From Bacillota bacterium (GTDB taxonomy: Bacteria > Bacillota > Sulfobacillia > JAJYWN01): a stretch of DNA of 64,000 nucleotides. Within the stretch, counting starts at the first letter, position 1, and each line of letters opens with the position of its first letter. The notes beneath the pieces were generated by a model, which saw nothing but the letters and a program-made list of their open reading frames with translations, was not told the origin of the DNA and did no database searches. The position numbers and the translations under genes were made by a program. Location of the stretch: NCBI GenBank assembly GCA_021791495.1, contig JAJYWN010000016.1, positions 38,970 through 102,969 of the forward strand. The letters run 5' to 3'. Below are positions 13,512 to 63,309 of this stretch, piece by piece.

Positions 13512-15272
13512 ATGGCATTGACTGGTGGGCGCTACGCCGACAAGAAAGCCATCGACGTCCTACTGACCACGGAGGGCACGTATCCGGTGGCCCGTGGCGG
13601 CGTGGGCACTTGGTGCGACACGCTGATTCGAGGCGTACCCGGCGTGAATTACAGCGTCTACGTGGTCATGGCCCATCCCTACCTACCGGACCGTTATAAG
13701 ATTCCGAGCGGCGTCTCTGTGTTGCGTGTCCCGATGTGGGGCACGGAGGAGCCTACCGAACACCTGGACGTGCCGTTCTCGGAGATCTACGAACGGAAAC
13801 TGCGCACCACCCCGTCCGTGCTGACGGCGGATTTCCTGCCGATGGTCGACAGTTTCATGACCGACCTCTGGAACCCGGACCCAGATGGACACAGACTGGG
13901 TCAAACGATGTTCAGCATGTATCGCTGGTTCAAGATTCACGACTACATGGAGGCCATGAAGTCCCGTGAGGTCTGGGACTTCTTCATCCGGGGCCTACGC
14001 GAAGAGCGCTGGAACAAATTCCCGTCCCCGCCCACTTTGACCGATTGCGTCCAGTCCATGGGCTGGCTCTACCGCTTCTTCGTCGTTCTCACTACGCCCG
14101 TACCCCTTGCCGACGTGACCCATAGCTCGGCGGCGGCCTTCTCCGGGCTACCGGGAGTCCTGGCGAAACTGGACCGGAAGACACCGTACCTTCTGTCCGA
14201 GCACGGAGTGTACCTGCGCGAGCAGTACCTGTCCGTGGGAAAGTCGAAGATGACTGCCTACGCCAAGCAGTTTTTGATTGGACTGGTGCGCGGCACGGTC
14301 ACGGCCAACTACGCCCACGCCGACGTGGTGGCGCCCGTCGCCGCCTTCAACGCCAGGTGGGAGAGACGGTTCGGCGTGCCGGAGGACAAGATCCGCGTCA
14401 TCTATAATGGCGTCGATCCCAACGCCTTCAAGCCACGGCCGCGTCCCGAGAACACGGTGCCGACCGTCGTCACGCTGGCGCGCATCGACCCGCTGAAAGA
14501 CATCCTGACGCTGATCCGGTCAGCCGCCTACGTCCGCGAAAGGATGCCCGAGGCCAAGTTCGTGGTCTACGGCGGGGTTAGCGTACCCAGCTACTATCGG
14601 GAATGCCTCGAACTCCGCGACCAGTTGGGTCTACAGGAGAGCTTCATTTTCGCCGGGCATGTGGACGATGCACCGTCCGCCTACGCCAGCGGGGACCTGG
14701 TAGTTTTGTCAAGTGTCAGTGAGGGCTTCCCCTACACCGTGGTTGAGGCGATGATGTCCGGCCGCGCCGTGGTGGCCACGGACGTGGGCGGCACCAGGGA
14801 GGCCTGCGCGGGGGCCGGCCTCTTGGTTGAGCCCGGCAATCACGCGGAGATGGGCGAAGCAATCCTCCGTCTGCTCCATGATCCAGCCCTACGCGCGTCG
14901 CTGGCCGCGGAAGCCCGCGAAAGAGCGCTGGCTTACTTCACGATTCAGCAGAATCTGAACCTATATAGAAAAGCTTATGAGGATCTGGCGCAGCCAGAGG
15001 AAGTTTCGGTCGATGTGTCGAAATTTATCGGTCGCCGCCGCATGCTTGCGTTGGTGCGTGCCAGGGCCTTGCAGGCCATCGGCCGAAACGCGGAGGCCAT
15101 TCGGGAATACCGCGTCGCGGTCGACTTGGCACCTACGGACGCTACGGCGCCGGCGCTCCTTCTAACCATAGCCGAGCTTTATCTATCGCGCGGGGAAATT
15201 CAGCGCTCATGGCAAGAGATGGAAAGAGCGGAAGCGCTTGCGGCGGCGATTCGCCAACGGAGGGCAGGCTGA
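13512..15272 (+). CDS. pelF: PelF-like GT4 glycosyltransferase (DUF3492) with C-terminal TPR-like extension
   Basis: LLTTEGTYPVARGGVGTWCD, LSEHGVYLRE, IYNGVD, RIDPLKDILTL, SEGFPYTVVEAM; GGAGG RBS. Confidence 0.88.
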   Translation: MALTGGRYADKKAIDVLLTTEGTYPVARGGVGTWCDTLIRGVPGVNYSVYVVMAHPYLPDRYKIPSGVSVLRVPMWGTEEPTEHLDVPFSEIYERKLRTTPSVLTADFLPMVDSFMTDLWNPDPDGHRLGQTMFSMYRWFKIHDYMEAMKSREVWDFFIRGLREERWNKFPSPPTLTDCVQSMGWLYRFFVVLTTPVPLADVTHSSAAAFSGLPGVLAKLDRKTPYLLSEHGVYLREQYLSVGKSKMTAYAKQFLIGLVRGTVTANYAHADVVAPVAAFNARWERRFGVPEDKIRVIYNGVDPNAFKPRPRPENTVPTVVTLARIDPLKDILTLIRSAAYVRERMPEAKFVVYGGVSVPSYYRECLELRDQLGLQESFIFAGHVDDAPSAYASGDLVVLSSVSEGFPYTVVEAMMSGRAVVATDVGGTREACAGAGLLVEPGNHAEMGEAILRLLHDPALRASLAAEARERALAYFTIQQNLNLYRKAYEDLAQPEEVSVDVSKFIGRRRMLALVRARALQAIGRNAEAIREYRVAVDLAPTDATAPALLLTIAELYLSRGEIQRSWQEMERAEALAAAIRQRRAG

Positions 15273-15297: not shown

Positions 15298-15834
15298 GTG
15301 AGCGGTACGACATCCTTACGGCGGCGCATGATGGGGTACTCCCCTGCCGCCGTGGCCGAAGCGTTGCGGCAAGGCCAGGAACGCCATAACCAGGAGATGG
15401 AGCGTCTCCGGCAGGAGCTCGAGAAGTTGCGGGAGAAATCGGCGGCCCTGTCCAGGCAGATTTCGGCGGCCGAGGCCAAAGCCCAGAGCACCGACGTCCT
15501 GGTCCACACTTTGACCGCCCGTATCCTGGAATGGGTTAATCAGCGGGCCGGTGCCGTTAAGGCCCTTGCTGAGCGTGATACCCGGGCCGAGAGTGAACTG
15601 CGGTCCGAATTGGAGAGGCTGCACGCCGTGCTGACGCACCTTCAGGAATCTCAGTCCAGGTTTGGCAATGAACTCAGCAGTCTGATGCGGCGCTTCCGCG
15701 ATGAGGTCGTGTCCTTGCGGGTCGGACTTCCGTCATCCTCGCCGGCGAACAGCGCGTTGTCTGAAGTGGCGGCCGGGCCACGGACCCAGATGCCTTCTCT
15801 TCCAGGGGAACGGAAGGAGTCCGCTATCAGATGA
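15298..15834 (+). CDS. DivIVA-like coiled-coil protein
   Basis: N-terminal RRRMMGYSPAAV resembles the DivIVA F-x4-GY-x3-V head, followed by a heptad coiled coil; GTG start. Confidence 0.6.
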   Translation: MSGTTSLRRRMMGYSPAAVAEALRQGQERHNQEMERLRQELEKLREKSAALSRQISAAEAKAQSTDVLVHTLTARILEWVNQRAGAVKALAERDTRAESELRSELERLHAVLTHLQESQSRFGNELSSLMRRFRDEVVSLRVGLPSSSPANSALSEVAAGPRTQMPSLPGERKESAIR

Positions 15835-17285
15835 CCCGGGCAGACCGTAAGAGGGCCGGGTTGCCTGTGGAGCGACTCGGGAGAAGCTTTATCGGTCTGG
15901 ATCCCGCGGTGGTGGAGGACGTCCTTCGCCATCAGTCGGCGGAGGACGCACGCCAGCAACTCTTCCTTCAGGAGCTAGTCAAGGCTGAACAGGCCCAGCA
16001 GGAACGGCTGCGGTCTCGCCTGACGTCGGTCGAGAACGACCTGCGCGTCGAGGAGGCGCAGGCCGCCCACCTGGAAAGCGCCGCGAAACTGGCCGATGAT
16101 ACCGGTGAGATCATCCGTGAGGCTGTCCAGCGCTATCTGAATGTCCTGGAGGGCGAGGCGGCCGAGCGGCGCAGCGGGTTGGAGATGCGTGTTTCCGAAC
16201 TCCGCGACCAGGTCCGGCAAAGTATCCGGCAGCTCGAACTGGCCGCCGAGCAGATGGGCGCTCTGAAGGGGGGAGACCGCTCGGGCCTAATGGCGGGCTT
16301 CCCCGGATCGATTGGGCTAAACCCGGCTACGTCCCTCGTGCCACCGGTACCCGCAATTCGTCGTTCGGAGTCTCCTCCGGACGTTCCGCCTCCGAGTCCG
16401 CTCCGAGCCCCGGCGACGGTCCAGAGTCCGGCGGCCGACCGCTCACCCGCCGACCAGCGGTCGAACCCTGGTTCAGGTGGTCGGGTGGTGCTTTTCCGGG
16501 CTGCCTCCGCGCATGAAAATGAACCCGACACAGAACCGCGGCCGGCTGAGCCTGAGTTGGCCGGACGGGAGCGGTCCGATGAGCCGCCGGCGGCTGGTTA
16601 TCTTCCGGTGTCGCCAGCATACCAGTCCTTCGGGAGGTCGGCGGCCACCGACTTCACCGAAGGCTCGGACACAAGGGGGGAGGAGCCGCCGGCGCTGTTC
16701 CCGGTCCCCCCGATCCCGACGACCGACGAGAGACTGGAGGGCGACCCGAAGCCGGCGGTACCGGCTGCGACGTCACCACCGGTCCGAATGAGAGCGCCTC
16801 CCCCGGCCCTTGAGGACAGCCACGCGACCACCGTGCCGGTAAGCGCTGGACCAGCAAGGACGAGCCTGTTCGCTACGGCGTCCCCAGCCGAGCCCGAGAC
16901 GGCCGCCCCGCCCGGGGTCGCACCTCGATCCGCGGCAGCCGGCGCCCCGGAAGGGGATGCACCGGTCGAGGCCGTCCCAGCCGCCGCGACCGCGGTAAGC
17001 GCCCCCAGCGCGCCAGGGGGCGACGCCCCACCGAAGATAGCCCAACCCGCTCCGGCCCCTTCCGCTGCGCAGATGGCCGCCGGCATCAAAGGCCGTCTGG
17101 CTTTGAGCATGGCCAGGCTTCTCGATGGGAAGGTCGTTGGAACGGACCTCCGGGATGATGGCGGGAACCTAGTCGCGGCCCGCGGCACGCCGATCACGTC
17201 CGAAGTGACGGCGAAAGCCGAGGCGGCGGGACTCTTACCCGACCTGATTCTTCATATGGTGTGGCCCGAGGAAGTGGAGGCGTGA
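15831..17285 (+). CDS. DivIVA-like coiled coil + Pro/Ala-rich linker + conserved-looking C-terminal domain
   Basis: RSFIGLDPAVVEDVL head, coiled coil, long disordered region, C-terminal LLDGKVVGTDLRDDGGNLVAARGTPITSEVTAKAEAAGLL; ATGA overlap with the previous gene. Confidence 0.7.
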   Translation: MTRADRKRAGLPVERLGRSFIGLDPAVVEDVLRHQSAEDARQQLFLQELVKAEQAQQERLRSRLTSVENDLRVEEAQAAHLESAAKLADDTGEIIREAVQRYLNVLEGEAAERRSGLEMRVSELRDQVRQSIRQLELAAEQMGALKGGDRSGLMAGFPGSIGLNPATSLVPPVPAIRRSESPPDVPPPSPLRAPATVQSPAADRSPADQRSNPGSGGRVVLFRAASAHENEPDTEPRPAEPELAGRERSDEPPAAGYLPVSPAYQSFGRSAATDFTEGSDTRGEEPPALFPVPPIPTTDERLEGDPKPAVPAATSPPVRMRAPPPALEDSHATTVPVSAGPARTSLFATASPAEPETAAPPGVAPRSAAAGAPEGDAPVEAVPAAATAVSAPSAPGGDAPPKIAQPAPAPSAAQMAAGIKGRLALSMARLLDGKVVGTDLRDDGGNLVAARGTPITSEVTAKAEAAGLLPDLILHMVWPEEVEA

Positions 17286-18880
17286 GCCGTGCCCCGAGGG
17301 TGGCTGATTCCGGAGATTCCGTAGACTTCCAGAGCCTCCGGCGTCAGATCTCCGAAAGCGGTTCCCACCCGCTCGACGTATCGCATGTCGCCGCCATGCT
17401 GGAGCTAAGCGGGATCACCGACCGCCGGGCGGTGTCCCTGGGGTACGATGACGTCTTCGACCTGGCACAGGCCCTCTATGAGTCGCTCTCGACGGACATG
17501 CGTTGGGAGACGGTCTTGGCCGATGACGGAGATCCCTGGTACAAGAGGTTCTTCCAGACTATCCGTCTTTACCTGCGCGGCCTCTCTTTCGCCGCGCCCA
17601 TGATTCTGTCGTCCGCTTCGGTCCTGGCGCTGCGTTTCTCCCTATGGTCCTACGTGGATTTCAGCACGGAAATCGCCACGGCCATCGCCCTGGCCACCTT
17701 CGGCAGCTTCCTGGTGACCGGCGGATTCACCCAGGCCATCGCCCGCCGTGGGCTGTTCTACATCACCCAGGAACAGTGGCGCCTGGCCCGCATATCCACG
17801 GCCCGCCTGCTACTGATGGGAGTATATGCCATCGTCCTGACGGTGCTGCTCGTCATCATCTTTGTGGCAATCATCCCCATCTTGCCTTGGCCGATCGTGG
17901 GCTACACCTTCTTGTACTTCCTCCCCATGTCCTTCATCTGGCTGGGGACGGGGCTTCTCTATATGCTCGACTGGGAGCCGGTCATCCTCGTGCTCATCAG
18001 TTTCGGCATCGGGATGGTGTATTACTTCTTCGATATCCGCAAGGTTCCGATGATGTACGCGCAGGCCATCAGCATGTGGATCATCGCCGTCATTTCCTTC
18101 CTCCTGGCCTTCGTCCTCTTCCGGCGCCTGGAAAGGCGGAATCCCAAGGAGATGGAGCAGTCGCACCGGATGCGCTGGTCACAGGCCACCCGGTCGCTCA
18201 TGCCCTTCTTCATCTACGGCGTCGCCTATTTCGCTCTGAACTTCGCCGATCGGGTCATGGCCTGGTCGCGCCCCGAGGAGTTTCACCCCTACTTCATCTG
18301 GTTTCGCGGCGACTACGAGCTCGGCCTAGACTGGGCGCTGTGGTGTCTGTTCGTGCCTATGGGAATAGTCGAGATTTACATCGTCGGGATGTTCCGCCGG
18401 ATCCAACGCCTCGGAAAGCACGTGAATGTGGCCAACATCCCCGCCTTCAATCGTGGCTTTCAGTTGTACCACCTGCGGACCATGATCCTCGTTCTCGTAT
18501 CCGGGTTCGCCAGCATCCCCGGCCTGGTCTGGCTGGCGAAATGGCTTTTCCAACTGGGGTTGCTGTACTTCGACCCGATGGACAACCCCATCACCCGTTT
18601 CGTATTCCTGGTCGGATCGCCGTCTTTCAGCATCATCGCCGCCGGGCTGCAGGGGTCTCTGGTGCTCTTCAGTTTGAACGAACCTTGGGTCGCCACTCGG
18701 GCGGCCGGCTCGGCGTTGCTCCTGAACATCATCGTGGGGTTCCTGGCCAGCCGCTATGTAGCCTACTGGTGGGCCGTGTGGGGGTTGGCTGTGGGAAGCC
18801 TGGTCTTCACCGGCCTCATCACGGTCCAGGCGATGCGGGTCCTTGGCCGGTTGGATTTCCACCTGATGCGGGGCGCCTAG
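17282..18880 (+). CDS. pelG: PelG-like polysaccharide transporter/membrane protein
   Basis: About 12 TM; FADRVMAWS and YELGLDWAL resemble PelG motifs; N-terminal VAAMLELSGITD...YDDVFDLA; downstream of pelF. Confidence 0.7.
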   Translation: MSRAPRVADSGDSVDFQSLRRQISESGSHPLDVSHVAAMLELSGITDRRAVSLGYDDVFDLAQALYESLSTDMRWETVLADDGDPWYKRFFQTIRLYLRGLSFAAPMILSSASVLALRFSLWSYVDFSTEIATAIALATFGSFLVTGGFTQAIARRGLFYITQEQWRLARISTARLLLMGVYAIVLTVLLVIIFVAIIPILPWPIVGYTFLYFLPMSFIWLGTGLLYMLDWEPVILVLISFGIGMVYYFFDIRKVPMMYAQAISMWIIAVISFLLAFVLFRRLERRNPKEMEQSHRMRWSQATRSLMPFFIYGVAYFALNFADRVMAWSRPEEFHPYFIWFRGDYELGLDWALWCLFVPMGIVEIYIVGMFRRIQRLGKHVNVANIPAFNRGFQLYHLRTMILVLVSGFASIPGLVWLAKWLFQLGLLYFDPMDNPITRFVFLVGSPSFSIIAAGLQGSLVLFSLNEPWVATRAAGSALLLNIIVGFLASRYVAYWWAVWGLAVGSLVFTGLITVQAMRVLGRLDFHLMRGA

Positions 18881-21717: not shown

Positions 21718-22862
21718 CCGACGGCCAGCAGCGCAAGACTCTGACCGCCGTCCGGTCCCTGGGGCGACGCGGGGACAGCGTCTGGGTGGCCGACGTCACG
21801 CTCTTCTCGACCAGTCGCTTCTCCCGTTATTGCCACCGGGGCTTGGTCTGCCCGAGACCTGAGGAAGAGGGCCGGTTCTGGAACTGGGTCCTGGCAGTGG
21901 TGGACCGGTACGCGCTGGACCTTTTCATGCCCATGGATGATTTCACCACGGAGGTGGGTGTGGAGTGTCAAGGTGAACTGCCTCCGGGATGCGGTTCCCT
22001 GCTCCCCACGCCCCAGCAATACGCGGCGGCACGGGACAAGGGCGCCACCGCCCAGCTGGCGATGAAGGCTGGGGTACGGCTGCCCCGCACTTTCGAGGTG
22101 GCCGACCGCGGGGAGATGGAGGCGGCCCTGGCGGTACTGGGTGGGCCAGCCGTGATCAAGCCCAGGTATTCGTCGGGTGGACGTGGTATCTACTTCGTTC
22201 AGGACCGGGCCGAAGCCGAGCGAGCCTGGACCATGGCGGAAGGCCGGCCGGAATGGGGCGGCCTCCTGGTTCAGGAACGCATTCCTTTGGGGCGTAAGTT
22301 CGACGTCTGCCTGCTCTATGGACCGGCGGGCGATGTCCGGGCTTCCTTCGTGCAGGAGGAACTCCGGTGGTTTCCGCTGGAGTCGGGCGCTAGCACCCTT
22401 CAGGAGAGCGTCGACCGACCGGACCTGGTGGACCTGGCGGCGCGGCTTCTCTCCCCGGTGGGATGGCGCGGCCCCGTCGAGGTGGAGTTCATGCTGGACC
22501 GCACTGGCGCCCCGGTGTTGATGGAGATCAACCCGCGGTTCTGGGCATCGCTGGCGCTGGCGGTGCAATGCGGCGTGGACTTCCCGTCCTTGACGGCGGA
22601 CCTCGCCTGGGGCCGCGACGTGCGGGGACCGGCGAAGTACCCGGTCGGACGGCGGTGCCGCTGGCTTTTGCCGGGCGACTTACTGCACGCCATGGCCAGA
22701 CGAGGAAGGGGCATCACCCCCCCCTTCTTCGCCACCTACGACGGACGGACGGTCGACGACATACTGTCCTGGGAAGACCCCGGTCCGACACTGGGTGTGG
22801 TCTTGGCCATGCTGCGGTATTCGTTGGATCCGGGCATGTGGAGGATGCTGCTGCGGTGGTAA
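21699..22862 (+). CDS. ATP-grasp carboxylate-amine ligase family protein
   Basis: LTAVRSLGRRG, ARDKG, VIKPR, LVQERIP, VEVEFM, LMEINPRFWAS. Confidence 0.85.
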   Translation: MGRVLLTDGQQRKTLTAVRSLGRRGDSVWVADVTLFSTSRFSRYCHRGLVCPRPEEEGRFWNWVLAVVDRYALDLFMPMDDFTTEVGVECQGELPPGCGSLLPTPQQYAAARDKGATAQLAMKAGVRLPRTFEVADRGEMEAALAVLGGPAVIKPRYSSGGRGIYFVQDRAEAERAWTMAEGRPEWGGLLVQERIPLGRKFDVCLLYGPAGDVRASFVQEELRWFPLESGASTLQESVDRPDLVDLAARLLSPVGWRGPVEVEFMLDRTGAPVLMEINPRFWASLALAVQCGVDFPSLTADLAWGRDVRGPAKYPVGRRCRWLLPGDLLHAMARRGRGITPPFFATYDGRTVDDILSWEDPGPTLGVVLAMLRYSLDPGMWRMLLRW

Positions 22863-23755
22863 GCCATGTTCTCAGCTTCGACGTGGAAAACTGGTTCGAC
22901 GGAAACCTCCACCGCCGCTGGACTGGGAGGCTGGGAGAGACTGGCGCTGCGACTGGCGATCGTCTGCCGGCCGAAGTGGACGCCGTCCTGTCCCTGCTTT
23001 CCGAAGCCGGCGGGGTCAAAGCTACCTTCTTCGTGCTGGGCAGTGTCGCGGCGGCGCATCCCGAGGTGGTGCGCCGGCTGGCCGACGGGGGGCACGAGAT
23101 TGGCTGCCATGGCATGGAGCACGACTTGGTCAGGGAGGTGACGCCCGTCCGCTACCTCGAAGGGCTTCGCCGGGCGCGGGGGCTCTTACAGGAACTGTCC
23201 GGCCAGCCTGTGGCGGGCCATCGCGCTCCTTCTTGGTCCATCGACCGCCGCGTCCCCTGGGCGGTGGCTGCGGTCATCGATGCGGGGTTCAGTTATGACT
23301 CCAGCGTTTTCCCTGCCCGGACGCCTCTCTACGGCGAGCCGTCCTGGCCTGTGGCGCCATTCTGGCTGGCCACTTCTGCCGGGAAGCACCTCCTCGAACT
23401 GCCGCCCGCCGTCCTCCGCTTGGGGCCGCTGTCCCTGCCCTACGGCGGTGGGTTGTACTGGCGCGTGCTGCCATTCGCCTTGGTCCATCTTCTCCTGCGT
23501 CGGGCGAGTTCTCCCCGGGTGACCTATCTGCACCCCTGGGAGCTGAACCCCGAGCCGGCGGGGCCGCTTCCGGCGGGGACACCGTTTGCGGCCAGGGCTG
23601 CCCTGCACTGGGGCGTGAAGCATAGCCGCGGGCGACTGAGGCGCCTCCTGTCGGCCCTTGGATTCCAGGAGTTTCGCGCCGTGGTGGGTAGTCTTTCGGC
23701 CGACCCGCGGCTTCCCACGGTTACTCTCCGAGGTCTGGAGGATGAGGCGGCGTGA
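22856..23755 (+). CDS. CE4 polysaccharide deacetylase (DUF3473 type)
   Basis: LSFDVENWF, ATFFVLG, HEIGCHGMEH, GHRAPSWS, YDSSVFP, YLHPWEL. GTG 22856 overlaps the previous stop. Confidence 0.88.
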   Translation: MVSHVLSFDVENWFDGNLHRRWTGRLGETGAATGDRLPAEVDAVLSLLSEAGGVKATFFVLGSVAAAHPEVVRRLADGGHEIGCHGMEHDLVREVTPVRYLEGLRRARGLLQELSGQPVAGHRAPSWSIDRRVPWAVAAVIDAGFSYDSSVFPARTPLYGEPSWPVAPFWLATSAGKHLLELPPAVLRLGPLSLPYGGGLYWRVLPFALVHLLLRRASSPRVTYLHPWELNPEPAGPLPAGTPFAARAALHWGVKHSRGRLRRLLSALGFQEFRAVVGSLSADPRLPTVTLRGLEDEAA

Positions 23756-25557
23756 TCCTGTCGGAAATGCCTTGGTGGGTGTCGGCGGCAGCTGGAGCCG
23801 CTTCGATCCTTCTAGCCTGGATTATTTCGTCGCTCGTGTTCGGAGGGGCGCGACGCCGCCGCGGAGACCCGGTGGCCCCGGTGTCTCTGCCGGGTCTGGA
23901 GAACGTCCAATCGCTGGACGAAGCCAGCGCCCGCATCCTGGACCACGTGGCCACCTGGGTCAAGGGGAAGTCCTATCACGCCTACTGGCTCGACGACAAG
24001 GGCGGGGCCTGGTGGCTGCGGGCCAGCCTCACCAGACCGGAATATCCGGACGTGGCTCCGAACTACTCCGGCCTGGTCATGGACGGCAGCCGGGCCGTAC
24101 CGCTATCCTTGCCCTTCGACGCGACCTTGACCTCCTCGCGCATCCGGGGGCCCCGCGACGAGCGTTGGCTGGACCTGCCCATCGGCAAGGACCTGCTGGT
24201 AACCGTCCTCCTCGGGCCGATTGGTGCCCTATCCGTCGCCGAGATCAGGCGGCTGGACCAGTCCTGCCAGACCCTGGCGCCGCTGGCTCTGACCGTGCGC
24301 CGCTGGCGCTCCGCGATGGAGGAAGCCCAGCACTATCGCGATTTGCTGGAGTCCACCCGCGTGGCTCTTGATGTCACGCTCCATATCGATCGGGCCGTCG
24401 AACTGCTCCTGAACGTTGGAGGCCAAGCGGTGGAGGCTCTGGTTCAGGTGGCGGTGGTGGAAGGGCCCAAGGAACCCTTGATCATCTCCAATTCCAGTGA
24501 AGGCAAAGCGCTGGGCCGCCGGATCGCCGAGAACGCGGAGCCGCGCCTGATGGCGCTGCCCCCCCAGCCCGACGTGGTTCCCGGAAGCCGGATGCCCACC
24601 CTGGGCTCGCTCTACAACGGCTGTGTGCGCGTCCCGGTGATGGTTTCCGGCAAGGAACCGGTGGGCTGTTTCTTCTACTTCATGAAGCACGCGCCGGCGG
24701 TCAACGGATACCAGACCGCGGTCCTCCGGGCTCTGGGCGAGAGAGCGTCGCAATTGGTGGCCAGCCAGCGCCAGGTCCAGAATGCCTCGGCAGGGTACGC
24801 CGATACTCTGGGAATCCTAGTCAATGCCATGGACGGCCTGTCCCCGCATAGCCAGGGGCACTCTCTTCGGGTGGCCCGGTTGGCCCGAATGATCGCCGGA
24901 CAGATGAAGCTGCCGCCGGACGAGGCGCAGGCAGTGGCCCAGGGTGCCTTCTACCACGATGTCGGCATGGTAGCGGTCGATCCGCGGGTGGTCCTGAAGC
25001 CCCAGAAGCTCACGTCCGGGGAGTACCAGCAGGTGAAACGGCACGCCGAGTTGGGCGGTCAGCTAGTGAGTGCCCTACCGGCCGCTCTCCCTCTGGGGGA
25101 GATCGTGGCCGGCCACCATGAGCGGTGGGATGGCGACGGGTATCCCCGCGGTCTGCGGGGGGAGGAGATTCCTCTGGGTGCCCGGATCGTGGCGGCCGCT
25201 GATCTGTTCGAAGCCAAGACCACCGGCCGCGCCTACCGGTCTCCCGTACCTTTCCTCCAAGCCGTCCAGGACATCCGCGCCGCGGCCGGCAGCCATTTGG
25301 ACCCCCAGGTAGTCGGCGCGTTGGTAGCGGCTTTCGCGGAGGCGGCGCGGGCGGTGTCGCCAAGCCTGCCCCTGGCCGCTTGCTGGGAGATGCGGTGCAT
25401 CCCGGCGGCCGTCTGTTCGGGGTGCGTCAACCGGCAGACCGGCGCGGGGCGTTGTTGGGAGGCGGGGAGCAACCTGTGTTCCCGCCACGGCGACCGTTGC
25501 GCGGAATGCCTTGTCTACACCGAAGCGACTTCGCGTTTGGCGGCGGGACGCGCGTGA
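23752..25557 (+). CDS. TM + GAF-like + degenerate HD-GYP + C-terminal Cys/Trp-rich (two-CW-like) protein
   Basis: N-terminal TM; GHSLRVA, YHDVGM, HHERWDGDGYP, ADLFEAK; tail CWEMRC...C..C...CWE...C......C..CLVY. Confidence 0.85.
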   Translation: MILSEMPWWVSAAAGAASILLAWIISSLVFGGARRRRGDPVAPVSLPGLENVQSLDEASARILDHVATWVKGKSYHAYWLDDKGGAWWLRASLTRPEYPDVAPNYSGLVMDGSRAVPLSLPFDATLTSSRIRGPRDERWLDLPIGKDLLVTVLLGPIGALSVAEIRRLDQSCQTLAPLALTVRRWRSAMEEAQHYRDLLESTRVALDVTLHIDRAVELLLNVGGQAVEALVQVAVVEGPKEPLIISNSSEGKALGRRIAENAEPRLMALPPQPDVVPGSRMPTLGSLYNGCVRVPVMVSGKEPVGCFFYFMKHAPAVNGYQTAVLRALGERASQLVASQRQVQNASAGYADTLGILVNAMDGLSPHSQGHSLRVARLARMIAGQMKLPPDEAQAVAQGAFYHDVGMVAVDPRVVLKPQKLTSGEYQQVKRHAELGGQLVSALPAALPLGEIVAGHHERWDGDGYPRGLRGEEIPLGARIVAAADLFEAKTTGRAYRSPVPFLQAVQDIRAAAGSHLDPQVVGALVAAFAEAARAVSPSLPLAACWEMRCIPAAVCSGCVNRQTGAGRCWEAGSNLCSRHGDRCAECLVYTEATSRLAAGRA

Positions 25558-26384
25558 GCCGGCGCCTGGGCGATGTGCGGACCTTTGCCGTGTACTACGG
25601 CACCGGCGGCGAGGATGTCCTGTCCACCTATGACCTGGCCATCGTGGCCGCGCCGGGGCGAGACCGGGAGCGGATCGCCGCCATAAGGGAGAAGGGCACC
25701 TTGATCTTGGCCTACTTGAGCGTTTTGGAAGCGCCGCTGGGCGAGCCTGATGATGTCCGAAGGCCGGGAGAGGCACTCGTCCAGGAGGCTCCCGCTAATG
25801 TCCTGACCGGCCCGGGAGGACCGGTGGTCAACCGGCAATGGAGGACGTGGGTGCTGGATCCGCGGCATGAGAGAACTCGCGACCGATTCCTCGGTCAGGC
25901 CGAAGACCTGCTTGATCGGGGATATGATGGCCTCTTTCTCGACACCATGGCCGACTTGGAAGATCTGCCCGAGGCCGTGGCCGCCGGTGGGTTAACGGGG
26001 CAGGCGACCATCGTAGAGGCCGCCCGCCTGGTAGCCGAGGCCGCGGCTAGCTTCGGGTGCGCGATGGTTCAGAACCGTGGCTTTCGCCTCCTGCTGCCCC
26101 TGACCATGCCGTATCTTGATGGGTTGTGCTGGGAGTCCTTCCCGTATCGCCGGATCGGGCTCTTCCCCCGGAGGAACCGCACCATCCGCTCACTACAAGG
26201 GGCGGAGGGAGCTGCCGGACTACGCGTTCTGGCACTGAACGAATGGAGCGAGACCAAAGTCGCCCAACAGGAGGAGCGTTCGGCCTCGCGCGCGGCCCGA
26301 CGGTGCGGCTTTCCGTGGTATGGGACCCTCCACTACACTGATCTGCCCAGCCCGGCCCCGGCGGCGGGAGTGATGCCGACATGA
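25554..26384 (+). CDS. PelA-like endo-alpha-1,4-galactosaminidase (GH114/GH166-like TIM barrel)
   Basis: FAVYYG, YDLAIV, LAYLSVLE, GYDGLFLDT, VQNRGF, LCWESF; GTGA overlap start at 25554. Confidence 0.78.
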   Translation: MSRRLGDVRTFAVYYGTGGEDVLSTYDLAIVAAPGRDRERIAAIREKGTLILAYLSVLEAPLGEPDDVRRPGEALVQEAPANVLTGPGGPVVNRQWRTWVLDPRHERTRDRFLGQAEDLLDRGYDGLFLDTMADLEDLPEAVAAGGLTGQATIVEAARLVAEAAASFGCAMVQNRGFRLLLPLTMPYLDGLCWESFPYRRIGLFPRRNRTIRSLQGAEGAAGLRVLALNEWSETKVAQQEERSASRAARRCGFPWYGTLHYTDLPSPAPAAGVMPT

Positions 26385-62175: not shown

Positions 62176-63309
62176 TTGAAGGTCTTACACCTCATTAGCG
62201 GTGGCGACACCGGGGGGGCCAAGCCGCACGTCCATTCCCTCGTACGGTCGTTGTCCCAGCATAACGTGGAGGCACGCCTGGCCTGCTTCATGGAAGGACC
62301 GTTTTACCAGGAAGCCGTGCAACTCGGTCTGAACGTGGTCCTGCTAAAGCAGCTTCGCCGCTATGACCTTTCGGTGCTGAGAGCCATCGTGCGCATGGTG
62401 CGGGATGACGGCTACGACCTCCTGCACGCCCACGGGGCCCGTGCCAATTTCCTGGTCGCCTTGGTCAAGGGGCGTCTCGGGGTGCCGTGCCTCACCACCG
62501 TGCACAGCGATTACCGTCTGGACTTCCTCGGCAGCCTGTACAAGAACCTGGTCTACACCACTCTAAACTCACTGGCGCTGCGAAGGTTCGACTACTACGT
62601 CACGGTTTCGGAAGAGTTGCGCCAGGTCTTGATGGCCCGTGGCTTCGCCGCCGACCGTATCTCCGTGATCACAAACGGCATCGATTTCGACGCGAAGCTT
62701 CATCTGCCACCGAAAGATCAAGTCTTGGCCGCGAACGGCCTCGCTTTCGGCCCGGACGATCTTGTCGTCGGTACGGTGGGGCGGCTGAGCCGGGTGAAAG
62801 ACTACCCGACCTTGCTCCGCGCGGCCGCCGAAGTGGTCGCCACGCAGCCAAGGGCGCACTTCCTGATCGTCGGGGACGGCGAGGAGCGGGCCGCTCTGGA
62901 GAGCCTGGCGCAGTCCTTGCGAATCCTCCCGAACGTCCATTTCCTGGGCTTTCACGCGAACCCTCATCCTCTCCTGAACATCCTGGACGTCAACGTTCTC
63001 ACGTCGATCAGCGAGGGCTTGCCGTATGCCCTGCTTGAAGGAGCACGATTGGCGGTGCCCGCAGTGAGCACCCGAGTGGGCGGGGTCCCGCACCTCATCG
63101 CCGACGACGAGAAAGGGCGCTTGTTCGAGGTCGGCGACCACCGCCAACTGGCGGCGCACCTCATCACCTTGTTGGGGGACAGAGAAATGCGCCGCCGTCT
63201 GGGGACGAACTTGCGGGAGCACGCCCGGCAGAACTTCTCTGTGGAACGGATGGCCACACGCCAAATCGAGATCTACAAAGGAATCATCGAGGGGGGACGG
63301 GTCCGTTGA
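62176..63309 (+). CDS. GT4 glycosyltransferase (cell-wall polysaccharide locus)
   Basis: HLISGGDTGGAKPH, HAHGARAN, TVHSD, ITNGID, VGRLSRVKD, SEGLPYALLEG. Confidence 0.9.
   Translation: MKVLHLISGGDTGGAKPHVHSLVRSLSQHNVEARLACFMEGPFYQEAVQLGLNVVLLKQLRRYDLSVLRAIVRMVRDDGYDLLHAHGARANFLVALVKGRLGVPCLTTVHSDYRLDFLGSLYKNLVYTTLNSLALRRFDYYVTVSEELRQVLMARGFAADRISVITNGIDFDAKLHLPPKDQVLAANGLAFGPDDLVVGTVGRLSRVKDYPTLLRAAAEVVATQPRAHFLIVGDGEERAALESLAQSLRILPNVHFLGFHANPHPLLNILDVNVLTSISEGLPYALLEGARLAVPAVSTRVGGVPHLIADDEKGRLFEVGDHRQLAAHLITLLGDREMRRRLGTNLREHARQNFSVERMATRQIEIYKGIIEGGRVR

What the first reader, a model, noticed from the sequence alone, without database searches (positions are those of the whole stretch)
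15298..17285. Two DivIVA-like coiled-coil proteins wedged between pelF and pelG
Seen: both start with DivIVA-head-like sequences (RRRMMGYSPAAV; RSFIGLDPAVVEDVL) followed by coiled coils and are translationally coupled. The second adds about 270 aa of Pro/Ala-rich disorder and a compact C-terminal module resembling, from memory, repeats in Bacillota PRC-barrel proteins. Known: DivIVA senses negative membrane curvature and recruits partners. Inference: dedicated scaffolds that position the synthase at poles, septa or the forespore, which I have not seen described for Pel.
Basis: inference. Interest (0 to 1): 0.62.

Follow-up and report, generated by a model that had tools for sequence, protein, structure and literature searches.

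The report
DivIVA-like pair in Pel-like operon
Two back-to-back genes encode very diverged relatives of the membrane scaffold protein DivIVA; in the genomes sampled they travel almost only with an unusual form of the Pel sugar-polymer synthase, so they probably replace its missing membrane adaptors PelD and PelE.

Summary
ORF1 (15298-15834, 178 aa) and ORF2 (15831-17285, 484 aa) are real, translationally coupled genes under purifying selection, lying between a TPR-tailed PelF and a multi-pass membrane protein.

They are paralogs of each other. Both are remote members of the DivIVA family. The window's own copies fall below Pfam's cut-off, but three natural ORF1 orthologs pass it. Family profiles also pick out the genome's true DivIVA ahead of every other reading frame outside the pair.

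ORF2 adds a 259-aa Pro/Ala-rich linker and a roughly 50-aa core fold within a 79-aa C-terminal module. It resembles the BBM2 module of RNA polymerase.

In one sample of 401 Bacillota genomes, the pair is present in 9 of 9 genomes with TPR-tailed PelF. It is present in 0 of 14 genomes with canonical PelF.

The downstream "pelG" has a MOP-transporter fold but no sequence match to PelG.

Best reading: a dedicated membrane-peripheral scaffold that stands in for PelD and PelE. Polar or septal targeting is untested. I rate it a new variant of a known kind, of moderate to high interest.

The parts
13512..15272 (+). Variant PelF: a GT4 glycosyltransferase with DUF3492 and an extra TPR-like C-terminal tail of about 80 aa (roughly 15030-15272).
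   Evidence: NF038011 PelF scores 156 bits against a cut-off of 100; DUF3492 and Glycos_transf_1 match; TPR hits at residues 513-546 are weak. The tail is kept in every locus where the pair lies next to pelF and is absent where the pair is absent.
15298..15834 (+). ORF1: a 178-aa cytoplasmic coiled-coil protein and divergent DivIVA-family member. Its head motif lies at aa 5-26 (15310-15375).
   Evidence: DivIVA is the top Pfam hit for the N-terminal part, at 19.8 bits against a cut-off of 28. Orthologs pass the cut-off at 42.1, 41.7 and 31.9 bits. hhalign against DivIVA gives probability 97.9%, P 5e-13. There is no TM segment. dN/dS is 0.13.
15831..16268 (+). ORF2 N-terminal domain (aa 1-146): a DivIVA-like head (aa 14-35, 15870-15935) followed by coiled coil. 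It is a paralog of ORF1.
   Evidence: hhalign against ORF1 gives probability 98%, P about 1e-13. Against DivIVA it gives probability 97.3%, P 1.6e-11 over 126 columns. The family HMM finds ORF1 (E 1.6e-10) and then the genome's true DivIVA (E 4.2e-7) ahead of all other ORFs.
16269..17045 (+). ORF2 linker (aa 147-405): Pro/Ala-rich, variable in length and sequence, with one conserved short motif, VVLFR, at aa 219-223 (16485-16499).
   Evidence: Composition is P 20%, A 18%. Relatives align poorly here. The motif [VIL][VILQ][PLQ]F[RKE] is found in 11 of 13 orthologs checked; GWRPG or FWG motifs occur in 8 of the 13 but not in the window's copy.
17046..17282 (+). ORF2 C-terminal module (aa 406-484): one helix followed by a small beta/alpha unit. 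It is BBM2-like and shared with double PRC-barrel proteins.
   Evidence: The AF2 model has mean pLDDT 79 and about 90 in the core. The leading Foldseek hits are RNA polymerase beta or beta' chains, over 37-41 residues at about 1 A rmsd in most, E from 0.02. The genome's own RpoB residues 279-324 are the best non-self hit. Profile A7 finds PRC-barrel proteins. There is no Pfam model for it.
17282..18880 (+).
   Evidence: The AF2 model has pLDDT 82.6 and pTM 0.76. Foldseek finds MATE, MurJ and WzxE transporters at E from 1e-4 and TM-scores of 0.5-0.6. Pfam PelG finds nothing in the genome at E<=10. hhalign against nine Bacillota PelG proteins gives probability 1%. The GTGA overlap with ORF2 is at 17282.

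Best explanation
What they are. ORF1 and the N-terminal 146 residues of ORF2 are two old paralogs of the DivIVA family. DivIVA proteins are cytoplasmic coiled-coil proteins that attach to the inner face of the membrane through a basic and hydrophobic head loop, and recruit partner proteins.

Proposed mechanism. The two proteins are made in fixed proportion with the membrane protein X, through chained ATGA and GTGA start-stop overlaps. I propose they assemble into a membrane-peripheral scaffold, either homo- or hetero-oligomeric. This scaffold would hold the soluble, TPR-tailed glycosyltransferase PelF against X and the rest of the export machinery. It would thereby do the job that PelD and PelE do in canonical Pel synthases, both of which are missing here.

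ORF2's long flexible linker carries conserved short motifs. Its C-terminal BBM2-like module would act as a tethered docking arm for a further partner.

Shown: homology to DivIVA; paralogy of the two proteins; absence of TM segments; translational coupling; near-perfect co-occurrence with TPR-tailed PelF; the fold class of X and of the C-terminal module.

Inferred: membrane binding, oligomerisation, contact with the PelF tail or with X, and any effect on where in the cell the polymer is made.
For: Homology to DivIVA.
- hhalign of 25 ORF1-type and 22 ORF2-N-type sequences against 30 Bacillota DivIVA proteins gives probabilities of 97.9% and 97.3%, with P 5e-13 and 1.6e-11 over 126-128 columns.
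- The head alone scores 35-37, against a maximum of 18 in 150 column shuffles.
- Family HMMs searched against all 47,957 six-frame ORFs of the genome retrieve its bona fide DivIVA as the best hit outside the pair, at E 2.6e-5 and 4.2e-7. The next hits have E above 0.01.
- Natural orthologs of ORF1 pass Pfam's DivIVA cut-off of 28 bits, at 42.1, 41.7 and 31.9 bits.
- GpsB (4UG1) is the only PDB hit among those listed that aligns through the head.

Dedication to this synthase.
- The order pelF(tail)-small-large-X is kept in 11 further metagenomic or MAG lineages and in 7 species-representative genomes; in an eighth the pair follows pelF while X is transcribed divergently.
- In one 401-genome sample the pair is in 9/9 genomes with tailed PelF, in 0/14 with canonical PelF, and in 1 genome without PelF.
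- In Actinomycetota and Deinococcales, tail-less pelF is followed directly by X with no pair between them.
- In L111 the pair stays with pelF while X is transcribed divergently.

Other support.
- Neither protein has a TM segment.
- Start-stop overlaps link ORF1 to ORF2 to X.
- The operon has CE4, GH114 and epimerase genes but no PelD or PelE.

Precedents (from my own knowledge, not checked here): DivIVA interacts with the glycan synthase CslA at Streptomyces hyphal tips; GpsB docks cell-wall synthases. Papers on CslA and DivIVA were listed but not read.
Against: The window's own ORF1 and ORF2 do not reach Pfam's DivIVA threshold. ORF1 scores 16-19.8 bits and ORF2 gives no hit, so membership rests on transitive and profile evidence. 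Coiled-coil composition can inflate such evidence.

Both heads begin at about DivIVA position 11. They therefore lack the short H1 helix that precedes the intertwined lipid-binding loop (loop anatomy from PMC7340271).

The Arg18-equivalent residue is hydrophobic in the window's copies.

The pair occurs without an adjacent pelF in three loci: L079, L112 and L114. It can therefore exist apart from the synthase.

No oligomer, membrane-binding or interaction model could be computed, because only single-chain predictions were available. The partner of the C-terminal module is unknown.
Confidence: 0.5

Rival explanations
1. Spatial targeting. The pair senses negative membrane curvature as DivIVA does. 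Its main role would be to place the synthase at poles, septa or the forespore, rather than merely to assemble it.
For: The DivIVA-family homology covers nearly the whole domain. The head keeps a hydrophobic residue at the Phe17 position, flanked by Arg or Lys. From my own knowledge, not checked here: DivIVA recruits CslA to Streptomyces hyphal tips; papers on CslA and DivIVA were listed but not read.
Against: The H1 helix is missing and the loop is altered. In DivIVA, curvature preference comes from higher-order assembly through the C-terminal tetramerisation region, and its conservation here was not established. The genome keeps a canonical DivIVA for that role. There are no localisation data.
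Confidence: 0.2
2. Regulatory brake or switch. The pair sequesters or gates PelF post-translationally, for example in response to the operon's HD-GYP protein or to c-di-GMP, rather than scaffolding it.
For: The operon lacks the c-di-GMP receptor PelD but encodes an HD-GYP protein (note e1-5219334). ORF2's linker motifs and C-terminal module look like docking elements.
Against: No nucleotide-binding domain or motif was detected in either protein. The RLG-like stretch in ORF2's head is not conserved across the family.
Confidence: 0.13
3. A general cell-envelope or division module that merely sits next to pelF. On this view the pair works in another process, as other DivIVA/GpsB paralogs and PRC-barrel proteins do.
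For: The pair stands alone near hrcA-grpE-dnaK in L079, and without pelF in L112 and L114. The C-terminal module is shared with widespread PRC-barrel proteins that are not linked to Pel.
Against: The 9/9 versus 0/14 association with tailed PelF. The chained start-stop overlaps with X. The co-variation with the PelF tail.
Confidence: 0.1
4. Unrelated coiled-coil proteins whose likeness to DivIVA is chance or compositional.
For: Single-sequence hmmscan of the window's proteins gives many coiled-coil families at similar sub-threshold scores.
Against: The head-only match lies far above the shuffles. DivIVA is specifically retrieved out of 47,957 ORFs. Three orthologs pass Pfam's cut-off with DivIVA as top hit.
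Confidence: 0.05

Closest known systems
DivIVA (Pfam PF05103; B. subtilis DivIVA, mycobacterial Wag31)
   Same: The core head signature is kept: a hydrophobic residue, then G-Y/L, then x4-V, then x3-L, with basic residues before it. A coiled coil follows, and the alignment runs over nearly the whole Pfam domain. The proteins are cytoplasmic with no TM segment. Some orthologs pass the Pfam threshold.
   Different: The window's copies fall below threshold. The first short helix (H1, LTPxDI) is absent. The Arg18 position is hydrophobic. The proteins come as a coupled pair inside a polysaccharide operon rather than in the division/cell-wall (dcw-ylm) region. ORF2 carries an extra linker and C-terminal module that I do not know from described DivIVA proteins.
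GpsB (NF010725; PDB 4UG1)
   Same: A small DivIVA-type head that docks cell-envelope synthases. It is the top NCBIfam hit for ORF1's N-terminus and, among the PDB hits listed, the only one aligned through the head.
   Different: The score is 19 bits against a cut-off of 91. No GpsB C-terminal trimerisation domain was recognised. The partners would be a GT4 and a MOP protein, not penicillin-binding proteins.
PelD/PelE of canonical Pel synthases (P. aeruginosa pelABCDEFG; B. cereus pelDEADAFG, PMC7112168)
   Same: Accessory proteins encoded in the pel operon next to pelF and pelG. From my own knowledge, they are needed to bring cytosolic PelF into a membrane complex. The TPR element of PelE has a counterpart here as a tail on PelF.
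   Different: There is no sequence relation. PelD and PelE are integral membrane proteins (GAF plus degenerate GGDEF, and TPR). ORF1 and ORF2 have no TM segment and no nucleotide-binding domain.
BBM2 (beta-beta' module 2) of bacterial RNA polymerase (E. coli beta-i4, PDB 3LTI; PMC2939025)
   Same: About 40 residues of ORF2's C-terminal module superpose at about 1 A rmsd with about 30% identity. The genome's own RpoB residues 279-324 are its best non-self sequence match.
   Different: The significance is weak (Foldseek E from 0.02; hmmsearch E 1.3). Here the module is a stand-alone terminal unit on a scaffold protein, not an insert in a polymerase lobe.
Double PRC-barrel proteins of Bacillota (PF05239 x2, about 260-400 aa) with an unannotated C-terminal module
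   Same: The C-terminal module is homologous, at E from 1e-7 to 1e-14. It is also preceded by a low-complexity linker. One ORF2 ortholog (L111) has a weak PRC-like segment inside its linker.
   Different: Their N-terminal parts are PRC barrels, not DivIVA-like coiled coils. They are not linked to pelF. The window's genome has none.

Membership tests
DivIVA (PF05103) | The window's protein reaches Pfam's gathering score of 28 bits. | tested here: not met
   ORF1 scores 16.0 bits full-length and 19.8 bits for its N-terminal 65 aa, where DivIVA is the top hit. ORF2 gives no hit.
DivIVA (PF05103) | Homology shown through orthologs and profiles. | tested here: met
   Orthologs L105s, L113s and L109s score 42.1, 41.7 and 31.9 bits. 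The family consensus sequences score 28.8 bits (ORF1-type) and 27.1 bits (ORF2-N-type). hhalign gives probabilities of 97.9% and 97.3%. The reciprocal whole-genome search finds the true DivIVA first.
DivIVA (PF05103) | N-terminal lipid-binding domain: short helix H1, an intertwined loop with an exposed hydrophobic residue (Phe17) and basic residues, then helix H2. | tested here: inconclusive
   The loop-to-H2 signature is aligned and conserved: Met, Phe or Leu stands at the Phe17 position and RRR or GRS precedes it. The alignment starts at DivIVA position 11, so H1 is absent in ORF1 and not detected in ORF2 (anatomy from PMC7340271). No dimer model could be computed.
DivIVA (PF05103) | Coiled-coil body, cytoplasmic, no TM segment. 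| tested here: met
   There are many coiled-coil family hits. The alignment to the DivIVA body runs to column 147-149. The highest 19-residue hydropathy mean is below 1.4.
DivIVA (PF05103) | Binds membranes and accumulates at negatively curved regions. | not testable with these tools
   This needs liposome binding assays and fluorescent fusions.
GpsB (NF010725) | Reaches the NCBIfam cut-off of 91 bits. | tested here: not met
   19 bits, E 1.4e-3, over the head region only.
Pel synthase operon | PelF glycosyltransferase (NF038011, cut-off 100 bits). | tested here: met
   156 bits, plus DUF3492. Canonical Bacillota PelF scores 330-405 bits, so this is a divergent subgroup.
Pel synthase operon | PelG (PF16933). 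| tested here: not met
   No hit in the genome at E<=10. None in nine orthologs of X. hhalign against PelG gives probability 1%. X does have the MOP-superfamily fold; from my own knowledge, that fold is also expected for PelG.
Pel synthase operon | PelD (GAF plus degenerate GGDEF) and PelE (membrane TPR). | tested here: not met
   Pfam scans of the genes from 11085 to 33814 show neither. A whole-genome search for them was not run.
Pel synthase operon | PelA-type modification enzymes (CE4 deacetylase, GH114 hydrolase). | tested here: met
   Polysacc_deac_1 plus DUF3473 at 22856-23755. GH114 at 25554-26384 scores 27.5 bits against a cut-off of 27.
RNA polymerase BBM2 module | Structural superposition with BBM2 of the beta or beta' subunit. 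| tested here: inconclusive
   The leading Foldseek hits are RNAP beta or beta' chains, including 3LTI, at probabilities up to 1.00 and rmsd about 1 A over 37-41 residues in most. E-values run only from 0.02 to 0.5. The sequence match to the genome's own RpoB has E 1.3.

The most novel reading that the evidence does not exclude
The DivIVA-like pair, the TPR tail on PelF and the MOP protein X together form a previously undescribed type of synthase-dependent exopolysaccharide machine. In it, a curvature-sensing scaffold of the cell-division family decides where on the cell the polymer is extruded. In addition, ORF2's C-terminal module defines a new, widespread Bacillota docking domain, shared with PRC-barrel proteins, that plugs different proteins into one conserved cellular partner.
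Probability: 0.2. Interest if true: 0.78.

Novelty: new variant of a known kind. Interest (0 to 1): 0.62.

Why it matters
From my own knowledge, canonical Pel synthases need PelD and PelE to bring cytosolic PelF into a membrane complex. How the many pel-like loci that lack these two proteins work is open.

This locus type is found in Clostridia and Bacilli. It offers a concrete, testable answer: a pair of DivIVA-family proteins that co-varies with a TPR tail on PelF.

The finding would extend the DivIVA/GpsB principle, in which a head-anchored coiled-coil scaffold docks envelope synthases, from peptidoglycan and teichoic acid synthesis to a secreted biofilm polymer.

It also points to an unannotated domain shared by about 15% of the sampled Bacillota genomes, in their PRC-barrel proteins. 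That domain deserves a family model of its own.

Tried and rejected
Searches that found little:
- Word-based homolog searches found only 2-3 close relatives of each protein, and none for the C-terminal module alone.
- Pattern scans of genome and metagenome contigs with the four-sequence ORF1 alignment found nothing, because the patterns were too specific. The family only opened up through PelF-anchored loci and whole-genome profile searches.
- HMMs built from the 3-4 closest sequences did not find the genome's DivIVA. Only the broader profiles did.
- Profile searches of PDB sequences were swamped by designed and eukaryotic coiled coils.
- Earlier notes of this scan, searched by sequence and by words, added nothing on this pair.

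Ideas considered and rejected:
- An MshEN-like c-di-GMP motif in ORF2's RLGRSFIG stretch. The spacing does not fit, and RLG is not conserved in the family.
- A C-terminal amphipathic membrane anchor in ORF2. Hydropathy is low and the PRC-protein homologs are not hydrophobic there.
- A polysaccharide co-polymerase (Wzz-like) role. There is no TM segment.
- A TPR-binding peptide in ORF1's conserved C-terminal KESxxR. It is confined to the nearer clade and is not family-wide.
- X as a true PelG. This was rejected on sequence.
Full report
**What is there**

The finding's coordinates are correct. ORF1 runs from GTG 15298, eight bases after an AGGGTGGG Shine-Dalgarno-like site, to 15834. Its TGA stop overlaps the ATG of ORF2 as ATGA. 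ORF2 runs from 15831 to 17285. Its TGA overlaps an in-frame GTG of the next gene as GTGA at 17282. The three genes are therefore chained by 4-base start-stop overlaps, and the same overlaps recur in nearly all related loci.

Public gene calls start ORF1 eleven codons later. Relatives keep the basic RRR stretch that such a start would cut off, so 15298 is the better start.

Against the orthologs in locus L001, dN/dS is 0.13 for ORF1. It is 0.10 for the ORF2 N-terminal domain and 0.11 for its C-terminal module. These are real genes under purifying selection. The many minus-strand ORFs listed are what a 63-72% G+C sequence produces, and none has any support.

Neither protein has a hydrophobic segment: the highest 19-residue Kyte-Doolittle mean is below 1.4.

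**Context**

The upstream gene (13512-15272) is PelF: NF038011 scores 156 bits against a cut-off of 100, and DUF3492 matches. It has an extra TPR-like tail of about 80 aa.

Downstream come, in order:
- the 539-aa polytopic protein X;
- a GT2;
- an ATP-grasp ligase;
- a CE4 deacetylase with DUF3473;
- an HD-GYP protein;
- a GH114 hydrolase (27.5 bits against a cut-off of 27);
- an MFS transporter;
- a 677-aa protein with no family hit, the second GT-C-like paralog of that note;
- an epimerase.

There is no PelD or PelE. This agrees with earlier first-reader notes on the operon.

**Is the downstream gene pelG?**

Not by sequence.
- Pfam PelG finds nothing in the whole genome at E<=10.
- It finds nothing in nine orthologs of X.
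- A 14-sequence profile of X against nine canonical Bacillota PelG proteins gives hhalign probability 1%.

By fold and position it is PelG-like. The AF2 model (pLDDT 82.6, pTM 0.76) matches MATE, MurJ and WzxE transporters of the MOP superfamily, at E from 1e-4 and TM-scores of 0.5-0.6 over about 470 columns. In Actinomycetota and Deinococcales the same family follows pelF directly.

**Are the two proteins DivIVA-like?**

The window's own sequences alone give only hints.
- DivIVA is the top Pfam hit for ORF1's N-terminal 65 aa, at E 8e-4 and 19.8 bits against a cut-off of 28.
- GpsB is the top NCBIfam hit.
- ORF2 gives nothing.

The family is rare. A profile search of 1.84 billion representative proteins found nine clusters of ORF1-type proteins.

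Anchoring on PelF, on those clusters and on whole-genome profile searches yielded 25 ORF1-type and 22 ORF2-type sequences from Clostridia and Bacilli. With these the evidence becomes consistent.

(a) ORF1 and ORF2's N-terminal domain are paralogs. hhalign gives probability 98% and P about 1e-13 to 1e-14.

(b) Both align to a 30-sequence Bacillota DivIVA profile. Probabilities are 97.9% and 97.3%, with P 5e-13 and 1.6e-11, over 126-128 columns that cover DivIVA positions 11 to about 148.

(c) The head alone scores 35-37. In 150 column shuffles the mean was 9, the SD 2 and the maximum 18. Reversed sequences scored 14.

(d) The two family HMMs were searched with filters off against all 47,957 six-frame ORFs of this genome. 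The genome's single bona fide DivIVA (147 bits to Pfam) is the best hit outside the pair, at E 2.6e-5 and 4.2e-7. Everything else has E above 0.01.

(e) Three natural orthologs of ORF1 pass Pfam's DivIVA cut-off, at 42.1, 41.7 and 31.9 bits. DivIVA is the top Pfam hit in most other orthologs.

The core alignment reads:

    DivIVA 11-KEFSKGFRGYKETEVDDFLDEV
    ORF1    5-TSLRRRMMGYSPAAVAEALRQG
    ORF2   14-ERLGRSFIGLDPAVVEDVLRHQ

More typical orthologs read RFSRSLWGYAPAEVDQYL or VLGYNRQEVDAFL.

I conclude that both are divergent DivIVA-family proteins. Two departures matter.
- The alignment starts at DivIVA position 11, so the short H1 helix before the intertwined lipid-binding loop is missing. 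The loop anatomy is taken from PMC7340271.
- The Arg18 position is hydrophobic in the window's copies. The Phe17 position stays hydrophobic and is preceded by Arg or Lys.

**The rest of ORF2**

Residues 147-405 are 20% Pro and 18% Ala. This stretch varies freely in length in relatives, where whole proteins range from about 300 to 640 aa. It keeps one short motif, [VIL][VILQ][PLQ]F[RKE], which is VVLFR at aa 219 here. Many relatives also have GWRPG or FWG.

Residues 406-484 are the best-conserved part. AF2 gives a helix followed by a small beta/alpha unit, with core pLDDT about 90.

The leading Foldseek hits are segments of RNA polymerase beta or beta'. Most span 37-41 residues at about 1 A rmsd and about 30% identity, with probabilities up to 1.00. 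E-values run only from 0.02 upward. The hits include E. coli beta2-beta-i4 (3LTI), which is built of BBM2 modules (PMC2939025). The genome's own RpoB residues 279-324 are the module's best non-self sequence match.

A 13-sequence profile of the module hit 85 of 401 Bacillota genomes at E<=1e-3. The hits fall into three tiers.
- ORF2 orthologs, at E from 1e-14 to 1e-28.
- A large set of proteins of 250-400 aa, at E about 1e-7 to 1e-11.
- RpoB and RpoC, at E about 1e-4.

The middle tier consists of proteins with two PRC-barrel domains (PF05239) that carry this module at their C-terminus, sometimes twice. Pfam has no model for the module. One ORF2 ortholog (L111) even has a weak PRC-like segment in its linker.

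**Association with the synthase**

The order pelF(tail)-small-large-X is found in 11 further metagenomic or MAG lineages. It is also found in 7 species-representative genomes; in an eighth (L111) the pair follows pelF while X is transcribed divergently.

Within one evenly drawn sample of 401 Bacillota genomes:
- 9 genomes have the divergent, tailed PelF (593-670 aa, 130-161 bits), and all 9 have an ORF2-type protein;
- 14 genomes have canonical PelF (436-532 aa, 330-405 bits), and none has one;
- 1 genome has the pair without PelF.

In Actinomycetota and Deinococcales, PelF lacks the tail and is followed directly by X.

In L111 the pair stays behind pelF while X and the next gene are transcribed divergently. 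This ties the pair to PelF more than to X.

There are exceptions. The pair stands alone in L079 (next to hrcA-grpE-dnaK), in L112 and in L114. In L115 only a short protein bearing the C-terminal module lies between pelF and X.

**How it most likely works**

Shown: DivIVA-family homology, paralogy, cytoplasmic character, coupled translation with X, and near-obligate linkage to a PelF that has gained a TPR tail in an operon that has lost PelD and PelE.

Inferred: the pair forms a membrane-peripheral coiled-coil scaffold, anchored by its basic and hydrophobic head loops. This scaffold recruits PelF, probably through its TPR tail, to X and the export machinery, and so replaces PelD and PelE. ORF2's flexible linker with its short motifs, and the terminal BBM2-like module, would act as a tethered docking arm. 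I put this at about 0.5.

I put it at about 0.2. It is plausible by analogy with DivIVA and CslA in Streptomyces (from my own knowledge; papers on them were listed but not read). It is untested here, and the altered head and the presence of a canonical DivIVA weaken it.

A regulatory brake (0.13), an unrelated envelope function (0.10) and chance resemblance (0.05) are the other rivals.

**Novelty**

Full-text searches found no paper that links DivIVA with pelF or pelG. None describes DivIVA-domain proteins in exopolysaccharide operons, or DivIVA together with PRC-barrel proteins in bacteria. The Gram-positive Pel survey describes other accessory genes; a term search of it found no mention of coiled-coil proteins or of genes lying between pelF and pelG (PMC7112168).

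Some orthologs pass Pfam's DivIVA threshold, so the family label itself adds little. What is new is the architecture (a DivIVA-like domain, a linker and a BBM2/PRC-protein module), the paired arrangement, and the strict link to one PelF subtype.

I rate it a new variant of a known kind, with interest 0.62.

Noticed in passing
window 17282-18880; L047, L051, L054, L056, L058, L059, L062: Protein X belongs to a polytopic MOP-fold family of 438-578 aa with a small N-terminal helical domain. The family has no Pfam or NCBIfam model. It follows pelF directly in Actinomycetota and Deinococcales loci. It may be the functional PelG of a large, unrecognised branch of pel-like loci.
   Followed up: partly
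L095-L104 (for example G145:C31:56300-58000, G102:C14:17300-19000): Double PRC-barrel proteins of Bacillota (about 260-400 aa) carry an unannotated module of about 50 aa at the C-terminus, sometimes in two copies. It is homologous to ORF2's C-terminal module and BBM2-like. It is present in roughly 15% of 401 sampled genomes and absent from the window's genome.
   Followed up: partly
L111 8213-10132 (-), G266; also G393 and G447 (615-640 aa): Some ORF2 orthologs are much longer. One has a weak PRC-barrel hit (18 bits against a cut-off of 21.2) inside the linker. This suggests an ancestral architecture of DivIVA-like domain, PRC barrel and C-terminal module.
   Followed up: partly
L079 5001-6388; L112 5026-7158; L114 5422-7790: The coupled pair also occurs away from any pelF or X gene. 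In L079 it lies between an NTP-transferase gene and signal peptidase, hrcA, grpE and dnaK. Whether those genomes carry pelF elsewhere was not checked.
   Followed up: no
L115 8157-8984 (-), G431: Between pelF and X there is only a 276-aa protein that has the C-terminal module. No DivIVA-like N-domain was detected in it, and no small gene was detected in the 290-bp gap. This may be a reduced or decayed version.
   Followed up: no
window 16485-16499 and orthologs: Short conserved motifs sit in the otherwise free-varying ORF2 linker. They are [VIL][VILQ][PLQ]F[RKE] (here VVLFR) and, in relatives, GWRPG or FWG. They are candidate docking peptides.
   Followed up: partly
window 15298-15330: Public gene calls start ORF1 at the second Met (167 aa). 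That start removes the conserved basic stretch of the DivIVA-like head. GTG 15298 with its Shine-Dalgarno-like site fits the family alignment.
   Followed up: yes
window 15805-15834 and orthologs P0002-P0004, P0008, P0011, P0014: ORF1 ends in a conserved peptide, (G/V)(E/x)(R/x)KES(A/F)x(R/G), after a Pro-rich spacer. The peptide is confined to the nearer clades. It could be a ligand for the PelF TPR tail.
   Followed up: partly
window 62551-63264: A second GT4 gene in the window matches the C-terminal half of the PelF model, at 79 bits against a cut-off of 100. This is ordinary GT4 cross-matching of the kind seen in many genomes.
   Followed up: no
window 25554-26384: The GH114 (PelA-hydrolase-like) assignment only just reaches Pfam's threshold, at 27.5 bits against 27.
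   Followed up: no
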